A DNA stretch of 64,000 nucleotides from the IMG/VR virus record IMGVR_UViG_3300021400_000091, positions 24,421 through 88,420 of that record, one strand, 5' to 3'. This DNA comes from a virus. Taxonomy: Duplodnaviria > Caudoviricetes. Below the pieces are notes generated by a model. That model saw only the letters and a program-made list of their open reading frames with translations, did no database searches and had not been told where the DNA came from. Below, one piece after another: positions 2,958 through 64,000 of this stretch; position 1 is the stretch's first letter; each line of letters opens with the position of its first letter. The position numbers were made by a program, and so were the translations under genes.

Positions 2958-3355
2958 TCTTCTAATGCTCTTCGAATCCAACCTCTTAAATATTTAATGT
3001 TATTACCTTTTGCTGCGATAGCATTATATTGACTTATTTTATTAAGTTTATATTGAGCTTTAAATAACTCAACTCTTAAACTATCGTTTTTAATTTCTAT
3101 ATCATTTATTTTATTTTCATAGATTTTATCCTTTGCTTTAGAAGCATCTTCATAATAATCTATAATACTATCAATCATTGCTTCATATTTAATGCTATCA
3201 TCATATCTAATTGCAGCTATCACACTATCCATTCCCTCTACGGGCAGATTATAACAAGCTAATGCAGTTGTGTCAGCTATGACATCTTTATCTGCAATAG
3301 TCTTGTTACAACTAATTCCAAATAACAACAATGGTACTAATAATAACTTTTTCAT
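2954..3355 (-). CDS. Lipoprotein with coiled coil
   Basis: MKKLLLVPLLLFGISC lipobox-type signal from ATG at 3355. Confidence 0.7.
   Translation of the reverse strand: MKKLLLVPLLLFGISCNKTIADKDVIADTTALACYNLPVEGMDSVIAAIRYDDSIKYEAMIDSIIDYYEDASKAKDKIYENKINDIEIKNDSLRVELFKAQYKLNKISQYNAIAAKGNNIKYLRGWIRRALEE
3234..3244 (-). repeat. CCCGTAGAGGG element, exact
   Basis: In lipoprotein gene; reads LPVEG. Confidence 0.95.
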
Positions 3356-3356
3356 C

Positions 3357-4355
3357 TTAAAACAAATTAAATTCTTTATTAATTGTAGCATTAATAACTT
3401 TTCTTCTATCTTTAAGAAGATTTGCTATTTCTTGCTTTAAATATTTCATTTTATGCAATGTTACTTTTTCTACTGGATTATCTTTAATATGATATAAACC
3501 ATCAGGGAATCGTTTAGGCATTCCGTATTCATTAAGAATAAAATCACTATCTATATGACAAAGCCATAAACCAGCACAAGGAATACCCAATATACTTTCA
3601 ACCATCCAAGCATACATAGAAAGTTGAAGATTATAAATAGAACCATTACAATCTTGAAGATTGCTTACAGGTGGAAGAAGTCTAGAGTCTTTAGGACACC
3701 AAATATTTGTTTGTTGTGCTGGTTTTTGTTGTTTATCTTTTTTATAATATCCACTTTCAAATTTAAGTCCACCTCTATTAGTTTTCCAATCCCCAATTAC
3801 AAATTTATCTTCTTTAATACATAAAACATCAATAGTTCCAGAGATTAAATAGTCAATTAAAAATGCTCCTATTTCTGAATAAATCTTATATCCTTTAGAA
3901 GTATAAAAATCAAACACTTTATAAACATCGTCATATTTATAATTAGTATGACGCTTAAACTCTTCAATATCTAACTCTTTAACTCTATTATTAATATCAG
4001 GAAGATCTGCAACAGTAATCATTTTACCTTCACCTCTCTCTAAATATCTAATAGCATTCTTAAACATTGAAGAATCTTTAATACCATCTTCTAATCCATT
4101 ATGTGTTCTAGTACCTCTATCACAAGCTTCATTCTTAATAGAATCCCATTGGTTTGCTAACACTTTAGGACTAATTTTAAGTTCTTTTGCTTTCTTCCTT
4201 AACCAATAATCATATTCAAATGGTTGTTGATAATCGTGAAGAAAAGTAGTAGTACTTAAATATTCATTTCCTAAAGTATCAGTATATTTATGACCATCTT
4301 CTCTGAAAATAAGTTGGATGTCATTATATCTGGTATCTTTAAGTTGTAAACTCAT
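3357..4355 (-). CDS. PD-(D/E)XK family nuclease
   Basis: GTRTH...SE...SGTIDVL...IGDWKTN...YNLQLSMY motifs. Confidence 0.85.
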   Translation of the reverse strand: MSLQLKDTRYNDIQLIFREDGHKYTDTLGNEYLSTTTFLHDYQQPFEYDYWLRKKAKELKISPKVLANQWDSIKNEACDRGTRTHNGLEDGIKDSSMFKNAIRYLERGEGKMITVADLPDINNRVKELDIEEFKRHTNYKYDDVYKVFDFYTSKGYKIYSEIGAFLIDYLISGTIDVLCIKEDKFVIGDWKTNRGGLKFESGYYKKDKQQKPAQQTNIWCPKDSRLLPPVSNLQDCNGSIYNLQLSMYAWMVESILGIPCAGLWLCHIDSDFILNEYGMPKRFPDGLYHIKDNPVEKVTLHKMKYLKQEIANLLKDRRKVINATINKEFNLF

Positions 4356-62533: not shown

Positions 62534-63033
62534 TTTGATTTTCTTTTATATTTACCACCACATTTATAAACATTTTGCATAGGTTGTATTCTATTATAAT
62601 ATGTAGGTCTAACTAAAACTTTAGGTTCAAATTGTGCAGGAGCTTGTCTAACTGTCTGAACATTACCCATTGTACTTGCACCTATAGCAGATTTAACTAC
62701 AGAACCTATACCACTACTTACTCCACTTATTACATCATTTGTATCTTGAATTCCCCATGCTCCAAGTTTTCTCTTACCTCCAAGAGGCATTAATGTAACT
62801 CTATCATAATAAGAATCTACAACATCTTGACTACCATTAATTGCATTTGCTAAATTAGCAGCAGTTGTTAAATTGTTTTGTTCTATTTGTTGTCTTTCTT
62901 GTTCTCTCTGTTGTTTCTTTTGCGCATTAGCACCAATAATACTTCCAATAGTATTACCTATTAAAGATACGCCAGCACCAATTAAACTACCAAGAAAGGC
63001 TTTATTTCTTTGATTTCTTTTAACTTTTCTCAT
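62530..63033 (-). CDS. Small virion cargo/pilot-like protein
   Basis: Gly/Ala-rich amphipathic FLGSLIGAGVSLIG segment followed by a Q-rich coil. Confidence 0.7.
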   Translation of the reverse strand: MRKVKRNQRNKAFLGSLIGAGVSLIGNTIGSIIGANAQKKQQREQERQQIEQNNLTTAANLANAINGSQDVVDSYYDRVTLMPLGGKRKLGAWGIQDTNDVISGVSSGIGSVVKSAIGASTMGNVQTVRQAPAQFEPKVLVRPTYYNRIQPMQNVYKCGGKYKRKSK

Positions 63034-64000
63034 CTTCTTATTTTAGTTAAAGAACATTCAAAACTTTCAAAATTAATTTTATTTTCGTTAGTTGTATTAA
63101 CTACAAATGTAAACACAAAATAATTACCAAACATTCTACTTTCTTTACCATTAATATTAACTAATTTATTCATATTAAAATATCCTAGTTCAAAATAAGG
63201 ATAATTAGTTCTAAATTTATTTGTAGCATTATCATTATCATATGTATCAGTTCGTTTTAAAACTAATTGACCAGTTCTACATTTATCAGATACTACATAT
63301 AGATAATTACCACTTTCTTCCACATATCTTCCCTCTACGGGCAAATTAATAAAATCTATTACAGCTAAGTTAGCAATATCAGTTATTCTAGTAAACTTGT
63401 AACTAAGATATTCTAAAAACTTAATTTCATCATAAGAATAATTTACAATTATAGAAAATTGACTATCAACAAATTTATTTGAATTAAAATGTCCAACTCT
63501 AATTTTATCTGTGTTTACTACAAATATTCTATCTTTAGTATATGCAAACCATGCAGGATTATTATAATCGTGCATAGAAACAAAACATCCAAGTTTATAA
63601 TTAAAACTAATTGTTTCTATAGTATCACCATTTTCATATCTAATTAATAATCTACTTCTTTGTTTATCATCACCAAATCTAATATTCTTTGGTTTTATTA
63701 GTTTAAGTCTTGCATCTATATCTTCACTTAAAACTTTTGGACCTTCTTTACTTAATGCAAAGAAATGATTAAAATCATTATTAAACCATATATAACCAAA
63801 ATCCCCAGCAATAGCAGCTCGTCTTTCTTGAAGACCACCAAAACCAAGTTCTGTATTAAACAACTCAGTATATCTAGATTCAAATATATCTTTTTGGTCT
63901 ACTTCTACAACTCCACCATTACTAGTAAGTCTATCGTTAAAATCAAATTGGAATAATGAATGTTCAGTATGTACTAGAAATATATTTCCAATAGCACATA
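63030..64000 (-). CDS. Tail protein (stabilisation/muzzle-like), C-terminal part; 5' end outside window
   Basis: Frame is open to the window edge (...IFLVHTEHSLFQF...ELFNTELGFGGLQ...TISFNY...FVSMHDY); beta-rich; synteny with cargo genes. Confidence 0.65.
   Translation of the reverse strand, partial: CAIGNIFLVHTEHSLFQFDFNDRLTSNGGVVEVDQKDIFESRYTELFNTELGFGGLQERRAAIAGDFGYIWFNNDFNHFFALSKEGPKVLSEDIDARLKLIKPKNIRFGDDKQRSRLLIRYENGDTIETISFNYKLGCFVSMHDYNNPAWFAYTKDRIFVVNTDKIRVGHFNSNKFVDSQFSIIVNYSYDEIKFLEYLSYKFTRITDIANLAVIDFINLPVEGRYVEESGNYLYVVSDKCRTGQLVLKRTDTYDNDNATNKFRTNYPYFELGYFNMNKLVNINGKESRMFGNYFVFTFVVNTTNENKINFESFECSLTKIRR
63331..63341 (-). repeat. CCCGTAGAGGG element, exact
   Basis: In tail gene; reads LPVEG. 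Confidence 0.95.

What the first reader, a model, noticed from the sequence alone, without database searches (positions are those of the whole stretch)
3234..63341. The element's orientation alternates strictly along the genome
Seen: copies with at most 2 substitutions run 3234(-), 5515(+), 13180(-), 14036(+), 19023(-), 20578(+), 25279(-), 27125(+), 34551(-), 34699(+), 43318(-), 46017(+), 49193(-), 60570(+), 63331(-). That is 14 consecutive switches, about 2^-14 if orientation were random, and it is independent of the transcribed strand. The degenerate 1517(+) copy also fits; only the deletion variant 29174(-) does not. Six of seven (-,+) intervals are short (0.15-2.7 kb), while (+,-) intervals are 2.8-8.6 kb. 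Inference: sites act as inverted pairs that define loops or domains, through protein-bridged synapsis, polar barriers, alternate-strand nicks or ssDNA/RNA fold-back. Caveat: the scan was by eye, and the pattern depends on including three variant copies.
Basis: partly seen in the sequence, partly recalled or inferred. Interest (0 to 1): 0.88.

Follow-up and report, generated by a model that had tools for sequence, protein, structure and literature searches.

The report
Evenly spaced strand marks in crAss phage
The alternating orientation is real but is a side effect: this crAss-like gut phage and its relatives keep one short DNA word at even distances along each strand separately, so copies on the two strands interleave; what reads the word is still unknown.

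Summary
The element is the 12-mer CCCGTAGAGGGA, with 5 weaker bases upstream. The window is 64 kb of an 88,420-bp crAss-like phage (Crudevirinae).

The listed copies and orientations are correct: 15 of 15 at up to 2 mismatches. The three copies outside the window continue the pattern, giving 18 of 18.

"Strict" depends on the threshold. A weight matrix trained only on nine other genomes finds 19 sites. It ranks the deletion variant at 29172(-) above two copies that the alternation needs, giving 17 of 18 switches. The copy at 1517(+) is not a site.

Across ten genomes, 174 of 237 neighbouring copies switch strand. Rotating the minus-strand copies against the plus-strand copies predicts 180.1 +/- 4.8 circular switches; 180 are observed. 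The real signal is therefore even spacing within each strand. Same-strand pairs closer than 3 kb number 9 against 58 expected. Opposite-strand pairs number 65 against 59.

A weaker polarity survives: (-,+) gaps are shorter than (+,-) gaps (medians 2.1 and 4.1 kb).

Sites sit at orthologous positions inside genes. They are phage-private and form no stable hairpin. Function is inferred: a directional DNA-strand signal, possibly for nicking or priming.

This scan found the same motif system at least eight times before, in other crAss genomes.

The parts
3233..3244 (-). Motif copy, exact; sense in a 145-aa ORF (reads PVEG)
   Evidence: matrix score 26.7 bits; same-orientation copy at the matching place in 2 of 9 other genomes
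5515..5526 (+). Motif copy, exact; intergenic, antisense to the neighbouring minus-strand genes
   Evidence: 28.2 bits; shares 35 of 60 flank bases with the copy at 13179
13179..13190 (-). Motif copy, exact; intergenic, antisense to the plus-strand genes
   Evidence: 24.8 bits
14036..14047 (+). Motif copy, exact; in a 97-aa ORF just upstream of the tRNA cluster
   Evidence: 28.2 bits
19022..19033 (-). Motif copy, exact; antisense inside the family B DNA polymerase gene (aa 399 of 764)
   Evidence: 27.9 bits; orthologous copy in 6 of 9 genomes
20578..20589 (+). Motif copy, 1 mismatch; sense in the 453-aa gene next to the polymerase (aa 156; the syntenic gene of the prototype crAssphage is annotated SWI2/SNF2 ATPase)
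   Evidence: 21.7 bits; orthologous copy in 9 of 9 genomes
25278..25289 (-). Motif copy, exact; antisense inside the primase gene (aa 274 of 395)
   Evidence: 31.7 bits; orthologous copy in 8 of 9 genomes
27125..27136 (+). Motif copy, exact; sense inside the ATP-dependent DNA ligase gene (aa 84 of 410)
   Evidence: 28.6 bits; orthologous copy in 9 of 9 genomes
29172..29183 (-). Variant copy (one base missing from the core); breaks strict alternation; antisense in a 245-aa ORF; specific to this lineage
   Evidence: 18.3 bits, above two copies that the alternation needs; no orthologous copy in 9 genomes
34550..34561 (-). Motif copy, 1 mismatch; left arm of the close intergenic inverted pair at the end of the replication block
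   Evidence: 25.9 bits; the pair can form a long-range stem as single-stranded DNA, z = -5.0
34699..34710 (+). Motif copy, exact; right arm of the same intergenic pair
   Evidence: 26.7 bits; a comparable close pair appears in the site lists of most of the other genomes
43317..43328 (-). Motif copy, 2 mismatches; sense in the 4521-aa giant gene (aa 1822)
   Evidence: 17.9 bits; orthologous copy in 3 of 9 genomes
46017..46028 (+). Motif copy, exact; antisense in the 4521-aa giant gene (aa 922)
   Evidence: 32.7 bits; orthologous copy in 8 of 9 genomes
49192..49203 (-). Motif copy, exact; sense in the 2646-aa gene (aa 2545)
   Evidence: 32.4 bits
60570..60581 (+). Motif copy, exact; antisense in a 988-aa gene (aa 651)
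   Evidence: 24.8 bits; orthologous copy in 1 of 9 genomes
63330..63341 (-). Motif copy, exact; sense in a 181-aa ORF (aa 79)
   Evidence: 27.7 bits; orthologous copy in 5 of 9 genomes
1517..1528 (+).
   Evidence: 3 mismatches; below 6 bits with the independent matrix

Best explanation
The copies are not paired. Each DNA strand carries its own series of one asymmetric word of about 17 bases (A-M-Y-T-S-CCCGTAGAGGGA in this phage, with lineage-specific dialects in relatives). Selection keeps it about every 5-12 kb on that strand. Copies closer than about 3 kb on the same strand are almost absent, and long gaps are also rarer than chance. The two series have similar density and are placed almost independently of each other, so they interleave, and along the genome the orientation mostly alternates. 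In this genome it happens to alternate at 17 of 18 steps. This part is shown.

The mechanism is inferred. The word is a phage-private signal read on DNA in one direction along one strand by a phage-encoded enzyme. My leading guess (about 0.3) is that it is a site where a strand is nicked or a new strand is primed, or a helicase is loaded, during replication or recombination-dependent replication. A site then serves several kb downstream, so a second site close by on the same strand is redundant. Because it constrains the protein sequence, the redundant site is lost.

The shorter (-,+) gaps would fit outward-pointing starts (initiation zones). That polarity is weak.
For: Alternation is explained by spacing within each strand:
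- With leave-one-genome-out matrices at a preset 12 bits, 174 of 237 neighbours switch strand. The strand-rotation null expects 180.1 +/- 4.8 circular switches and 180 are seen.
- Same-strand pairs within 0-3 kb: 9 observed, 58 expected. Opposite-strand pairs: 65 observed, 59 expected.
- Of 67 same-orientation neighbour gaps, 1 is at most 1 kb, against 41 of 180 opposite-orientation gaps.
- Spacing is more even than a 3-kb exclusion alone gives: Stouffer z = -5.3 for the coefficient of variation and -3.6 for the largest gap over 20 strand sets. In 18 of those 20 sets the coefficient of variation is below 0.71, the value that alternation with random spacing would give.

The signal acts on DNA and is under selection:
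- The same core occurs 13-26 times in five IMG/VR genomes and 16-29 times in four of the five named Crudevirinae genomes searched, against 0-2 for the reversed control word. These genomes align to this one over only 24-42% of its length at 69-72% identity.
- Copies lie at orthologous codons in the same relative orientation: the ligase and the 453-aa gene in 9 of 9 genomes; the primase, the giant gene and a 297-aa gene in 8 of 9; never in the opposite orientation. The flanks have diverged.
- Orientation relative to genes looks neutral: 78 antisense, 60 sense and 45 intergenic copies. Sense copies never use the frame closed by the internal TAG (52/8/0).
- Position within genes does not differ between sense and antisense copies (P = 0.86).

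The signal is private to the phage:
- The 10-mer core occurs 5-20 times per 2.1-6.1-Mb genome in five Bacteroidales genomes, like its reversed control (11-29).
- Each lineage has its own dialect of the flanks.

It is not a structure:
- 14 of 16 copies fold no better than shuffles (z above -2; minimum free energy -1.9 to -6.4 kcal/mol).
- There is no Rfam match at any copy.
Against: - No nick, primer, transcript end or bound protein was observed. The public runs that hold this phage are kept as contigs only and show no molecule ends.
- The ten genomes share ancestry. G002 and G004 are 96% identical over 73% of their length, and many sites are inherited, so pooled P values are inflated.
- In this genome alternation still exceeds the spacing null (P = 0.023).
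- The (-,+) against (+,-) asymmetry (P = 0.015 under the same null) shows that the strands are not fully independent.
- Known phage nick motifs lie on one strand only (passages of PMC3517423).
- The phage encodes a primase, so dedicated priming sites are not obviously needed.
- A stretch of about 15 kb over the capsid-to-terminase genes (genome 12737-27653) has no site on either strand, which sits badly with a strict coverage requirement.
Confidence: 0.6

Rival explanations
1. One reading: copies act as inverted (-,+) pairs, each minus copy with the next plus copy, brought together by a bridging protein or by fold-back of single strands to form loops or domains. Alternation is then the primary, selected property.
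For: - 18 of 18 copies alternate at up to 2 mismatches, and 17 of 18 steps with the preset matrix. This exceeds the spacing null in this genome (P = 0.023).
- (-,+) gaps are shorter than (+,-) gaps in 10 of 10 genomes.
- A close intergenic inverted pair sits at the end of the replication block. It can form a 24-bp stem with z = -5.0, and a comparable pair appears in the site lists of most relatives.
- Opposite-strand pairs are mildly enriched at 0-1 kb (27 observed, 19.8 expected).
Against: - Pooled switches equal the null (180 against 180.1). cr110_1 has fewer than the null (20 against 24.3).
- The phase of minus copies between plus copies is only mildly skewed (mean 0.44; 69 of 121 below 0.5).
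- Partners share no extra flank complementarity.
- In the prototype crAssphage the close pair is (+,-), not (-,+).
- No recombinase is present.
- The model does not explain why same-strand copies are evenly spaced.
Confidence: 0.12
2. A transcription or RNA signal. It could be a promoter, pause or terminator word for the phage's own giant RNA polymerase. Alternatively, complementary RNA words (antisense copy first, sense copy about 2 kb downstream) could pair and be processed.
For: - The phage family has a private polymerase that prefers single-stranded templates (passages of bioRxiv 10.1101/2020.03.07.982082).
- The word has the length and asymmetry of single-polymerase phage promoters (recalled).
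- Along the direction of transcription, the antisense-to-sense gap is the short one.
- Some intergenic copies in relatives directly follow GC-rich hairpins.
Against: - 78 of 138 coding copies are antisense within one-directional gene blocks.
- The antisense-to-sense ratio is close to the 3:2 ratio of open frames, as expected if transcription direction is irrelevant.
- There is no position bias within genes.
- Local structure is weak.
- The same preprint reports no common motif upstream of early transcripts of phage phi14:2, and its middle-promoter motifs are intergenic and in the sense direction.
Confidence: 0.15
3. Remnants of a small mobile element (MITE-like or REP-like) whose terminal inverted repeats give alternation automatically.
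For: - Alternation is what non-nested inverted-repeat elements would produce.
- The 160-bp unit at window 34550-34710 looks like a miniature element.
- The core contains GTAG, as REP sequences do (recalled).
Against: - Copies are single and sit at orthologous codons in genomes only about 70% identical.
- The flanks have diverged while the word is invariant.
- No Y1 transposase, integrase or resolvase is present.
- Partners share no extended repeats.
Confidence: 0.03

Closest known systems
Nick-associated motifs of phages with localised single-strand interruptions (T5, phiKMV-like, tf/LUZ24-like)
   Same: A phage-private, asymmetric word of 9-20 bases, dispersed through coding DNA. It sits at similar positions in related phages and has no known function after decades (passages of PMC3517423).
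   Different: Those motifs lie on one strand only (tf: 14 of 14 on the top strand) and are unevenly spread. Here both strands carry similar numbers (9 plus, 10 minus) and each series is evenly spaced. Nicking is not shown here.
Chi sites read by RecBCD/AddAB, and uptake sequences (USS/DUS)
   Same: A short, orientation-dependent word tolerated inside genes and read along one strand by a travelling enzyme. 'Coverage' logic could apply.
   Different: Those words saturate the host chromosome. Here the core is at control level in five Bacteroidales genomes. The word is longer (about 17 bases) and has phage-lineage dialects. The properties of Chi and USS are recalled, not tested.
REP/BIME and REPIN elements with RAYT transposases
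   Same: They contain GTAG, and neighbouring copies alternate in orientation (recalled).
   Different: REPs are intergenic, clustered and hairpin-forming. Here 138 of 183 copies are inside genes, hairpins are weak and there is no Y1 transposase.
Promoters of single-polymerase phages (T7 type)
   Same: A conserved asymmetric word of about 17-23 bases, private to the phage and ending in a purine run (recalled).
   Different: Such promoters all face with the genes and lie between them. Here more than half of the coding copies are antisense.
Shufflon and invertase crossover sites
   Same: Repeats in alternating orientation (recalled).
   Different: They need a recombinase and flank dispensable segments. 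Here there is no recombinase and the copies lie in essential genes.

Membership tests
Phage nick-site motifs (T5, phiKMV, tf type) | Asymmetric consensus private to the phage, at conserved positions in relatives | tested here: met
Phage nick-site motifs (T5, phiKMV, tf type) | All sites on one strand | tested here: not met
   9 plus and 10 minus sites in this genome; one-strand rule read in passages of PMC3517423
Phage nick-site motifs (T5, phiKMV, tf type) | Physical nick in virion DNA at the motif | not testable with these tools
   The runs that hold the phage are kept as contigs only
Chi / USS / DUS type host-wide words | Strong over-representation in the host chromosome | tested here: not met
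   5-20 copies per genome against 11-29 for the control word in five Bacteroidales genomes. The true host is unknown.
REP/REPIN (RAYT-associated) | Stable imperfect palindrome | tested here: not met
   14 of 16 copies have z above -2
REP/REPIN (RAYT-associated) | Cognate Y1 (IS200-like) transposase | tested here: not met
   PF01797 is absent from the genome; the control search hit 6 of 14 genomes
MITE / terminal-inverted-repeat element | Paired ends with shared extended repeats; presence/absence among relatives | tested here: not met
   Flank identity of neighbours equals that of non-neighbours; copies are orthologous across genera
Invertase / shufflon sites | Site-specific recombinase encoded | tested here: not met
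   PF00589 and PF00239 are absent
Phage promoter (T7 type) | Upstream of genes, co-oriented with them | tested here: not met
   78 antisense, 60 sense, 45 intergenic copies
Known RNA families (Rfam 15) | Covariance-model match at the copies | tested here: not met
   Only the four tRNAs match in the window

The most novel reading that the evidence does not exclude
The evenly spaced marks are the start points (nick or primer sites) of a multi-site replication programme private to crAss-like phages. Each mark launches synthesis in one direction on one strand. Outward-facing (-,+) neighbours form initiation zones, forks meet in the longer (+,-) intervals, and a co-evolving phage enzyme reads lineage-specific dialects of the word.
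Probability: 0.15. Interest if true: 0.85.

Novelty: new variant of a known kind. Interest (0 to 1): 0.55.

Why it matters
- crAss-like phages include the most abundant virus of the human gut, yet how they replicate and organise their DNA is almost unknown.
- A word kept unchanged at the same codons of the polymerase, primase, ligase and giant polymerase genes across genera, evenly spaced on each strand, points to an undescribed DNA transaction that can be tested directly in cultured relatives.
- For the scan, the lesson is methodological. Alternation of orientation should be tested against a null that keeps each strand's spacing. Here that null absorbs the effect, and only a weak polarity remains.
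- I found no mention of the word in print. Full-text searches for CCCGTAGAGGG and its reverse complement returned only unrelated papers. Four keyword searches on crAss phages found nothing on it, and a fifth matched no crAss paper.

Tried and rejected
- Rfam scan of the window: only the four tRNAs matched.
- Public runs: 22 runs were listed, all kept as contigs. I laid four of them (three recorded as RNA, one probably DNA) on window 12500-32400. They gave scattered pieces at 90-99% identity and no molecule starts or ends, so they say nothing about nicks or transcripts.
A uracil-DNA-glycosylase query found no bacterial relative. I reached Bacteroidales genomes through a 16S primer.
This genome has no RepL by Pfam, and its ORF after the pair is unrelated.
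- Recombination junctions: of 22 block ends between G002 and G004, 2 lie within 100 bp of a site against 1.13 expected (P = 0.32). Both are only 7-8 bp away, which is suggestive only after the fact.
- Gene-position bias as the cause of the polarity: none found.
- No close relatives of this genome could be retrieved for strain-level tests; the best was 67% amino-acid identity in the polymerase.
- Frame use of sense copies as evidence for a peptide motif: rejected, because one of the three frames holds a stop.
- Dropped rows: NC_091965 (W03) had only 7 hits at up to 2 mismatches and was not fetched or analysed further. G004 was left out as a near-duplicate of G002.
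Full report
WHAT THE ELEMENT IS

Reading the listed coordinates shows one word, CCCGTAGAGGGA. The window holds 12 exact copies, 14 at up to 1 mismatch and 15 at up to 2 mismatches. At 3 mismatches the list fills with unrelated hits, 28 in total.

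The window is bases 24421-88420 of an 88,420-bp virus record with a 107-bp terminal overlap. Its features place it in the crAss-like phages:
- Genes run leftward in 1-30962 and 59646-88420 and rightward in 31963-59521 of the genome.
- It has giant 4521-aa and 2646-aa ORFs.
- It shows 66-70% nucleotide similarity to Carjivirus communis and other Crudevirinae.

Genes that carry copies include the family B DNA polymerase, the primase and the ATP-dependent ligase.

CHECKING THE OBSERVATION

The 15 copies at up to 2 mismatches alternate exactly as listed. The three copies outside the window, 3823(+), 4821(-) and 12737(+), continue the pattern, giving 18 of 18.

The strictness, however, depends on which weak copies are admitted:
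- The 12 exact copies in the window do not alternate.
- A weight matrix built only from 170 sites of nine other genomes finds 19 sites here at any threshold from 10 to 14 bits, where at most 0.125 false hits are expected.
- It ranks the 'deletion variant' at window 29172(-) (18.3 bits) above window 43317(-) (17.9) and genome 4821(-) (15.0). The preset-threshold result is therefore 17 of 18 switches.
- Window 1517(+) scores below 6 bits.

THE WORD IN RELATIVES

The same core occurs 26, 21, 13, 22 and 24 times (up to 2 mismatches) in five IMG/VR genomes of 88-97 kb. It occurs 16, 17, 29 and 29 times in BK010471 (the prototype crAssphage), MH616963, NC_055874 and NC_055879. The reversed control word occurs 0-2 times. 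NC_091965 had only 7 weak hits and was not analysed further.

The five IMG/VR genomes align to this genome over only 24-42% of its length at 69-72% identity. Only G002 and G004 are close to each other (96% over 73%).

Each lineage has its own dialect of the flanks and of the last two core bases.

Copies are positionally conserved, and no orthologous copy is in the opposite orientation:
- Ligase and the 453-aa gene: copy at the matching codon and orientation in 9 of 9 other genomes.
- Primase, giant gene and a 297-aa gene: 8 of 9.
- Polymerase: 6 of 9.
- Genome 4821, 12737 and 53592 (the last is window 29172): specific to this lineage.

The flanks differ freely while the word is invariant. Selection therefore acts on the DNA word, not on a peptide.

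IS ALTERNATION THE PRIMARY PROPERTY?

With leave-one-genome-out matrices at a preset 12 bits, 174 of 237 neighbouring copies in ten genomes switch strand, which is 73%. With a fixed regular expression the figure is 122 of 175.

I then kept each strand's copies where they are and rotated the minus set against the plus set. This null expects 180.1 +/- 4.8 circular switches, and 180 are observed. Per genome, the P values run from 0.023 (this genome, 18 against 13.9 +/- 1.5) to 0.99 (NC_055879, 20 against 24.3). For the set at up to 2 mismatches this genome gives 18 against 13.6, P = 0.014, and the other nine are unremarkable.

Alternation is therefore what two independent, evenly spaced series produce.

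THE UNDERLYING SIGNAL

- Same-strand pairs within 0-3 kb number 9 against 58 expected, with a mild excess at 6-8 kb. Opposite-strand pairs number 65 against 59.
- Per strand, the coefficient of variation of the gaps is typically 0.3-0.6, against about 1 for random placement.
- Spacing remains too even after allowing a 3-kb hard exclusion: Stouffer z = -5.3 for the coefficient of variation and -3.6 for the largest gap.
- Alternation with otherwise random spacing would give a per-strand coefficient of variation of 0.71. 18 of 20 strand sets are below that.
- The densest genomes (33-35 sites) are still even, so the pattern is maintained and not merely inherited.
- These genomes share ancestry, so the pooled P values overstate independence.

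WHAT SURVIVES OF THE PAIR IDEA

- The median (-,+) gap is shorter than the median (+,-) gap in 10 of 10 genomes: pooled 2098 against 4101 bp, Mann-Whitney P = 0.0004, rotation null P = 0.015.
- This also holds outside the replication block (2419 against 4254 bp).
- The phase of minus copies between plus copies is only mildly skewed (mean 0.44, Kolmogorov-Smirnov P = 0.02).
- Position within genes does not explain it.
- Neighbouring partners share no extra flank similarity (20.5 of 60 bases for neighbours and non-neighbours alike).
- The one close intergenic pair (window 34550/34699) can fold as a long-range stem. A comparable close pair appears in the site lists of most relatives, but in the prototype crAssphage its arrangement is (+,-).

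WHAT IT IS NOT

- Not a stable hairpin: 14 of 16 copies have z above -2.
- Not an Rfam family.
- Not a mobile element: copies are orthologous, and there is no Y1 transposase, integrase or resolvase.
- Not a host-wide word such as Chi or an uptake sequence: 5-20 copies per Bacteroidales genome against 11-29 for the control word. The true host is unknown; the phage occurs in ruminant gut samples.
- Not dependent on RepL, which is absent here.
- Orientation relative to genes looks neutral. There are 78 antisense, 60 sense and 45 intergenic copies, close to the 3:2 ratio of usable reading frames. The sense frame that would read TAG is never used.

MECHANISM

Shown: each strand carries a private, directional, evenly spaced word under DNA-level selection, and the alternation follows from that.

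Inferred: a phage-encoded enzyme reads the word on one strand and acts over several kb. A nearby second copy is then redundant and, being costly inside genes, is lost. My leading guess is strand nicking, priming or loading in replication or recombination (about 0.3). A signal for the phage polymerase is the main rival (0.15), and true inverted pairs come next (0.12).

Known phage nick motifs are the nearest precedent but lie on one strand only (passages of PMC3517423). The phi14:2 study reports no common motif before early transcripts (passages of the bioRxiv preprint).

EARLIER WORK IN THIS SCAN AND IN PRINT

The scan's index holds at least eight earlier follow-ups on other crAss genomes that describe the same evenly spaced, strand-specific word. 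I reached the same description independently and add the strand-rotation test. Text searches for the word and its complement found no phage paper. Supplements were closed.

Noticed in passing
window 14203-15017: Cluster of four tRNA genes (Leu-TAA, Arg-TCT, Glu-TTC, Met-CAT) in the replication block, directly downstream of the motif copy at 14036.
   Followed up: no
window 5515 and 13179: These two intergenic copies share 35 of 60 flank bases, the highest of any neighbouring pair. They bracket the 7.7-kb stretch that contains the divergent start of both gene blocks. They form a (+,-) pair, not a (-,+) pair.
   Followed up: partly
window 34530-34730: A 160-bp intergenic unit bounded by inverted copies folds as single-stranded DNA with z = -5.0. 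A comparable close pair lies at the end of the replication block in most relatives. It is a candidate origin or small RNA.
   Followed up: partly
BK010471.1 near 6022 and 28173; NC_055874.1 near 10886, 44004 and 77145; G004 near 28200 and 28323: Several intergenic copies in relatives are immediately preceded by a GC-rich stem-loop, often with a TTCG-like loop. The relation to terminators was not examined.
   Followed up: no
G002 near 44846 and 76441: Two of the 22 ends of high-identity blocks between G002 and G004 lie 7-8 bp from a motif copy. After the second one, the giant polymerase region is replaced over about 10 kb. This is an after-the-fact observation.
   Followed up: partly
genome 12737-27653 (window up to 3233): About 15 kb in the leftward gene block has no motif copy on either strand. 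In the prototype crAssphage the comparable copy-free stretch covers the capsid, portal and terminase genes.
   Followed up: no
window 7435-8277: The first gene of the rightward block lies in a GC-richer stretch (0.32-0.36 against 0.26-0.29 elsewhere) and has no Pfam match.
   Followed up: no
window 33311-34358: A dUTPase (PF00692) and a crAss001_48-related small protein (PF21825) lie just before the inverted pair.
   Followed up: no
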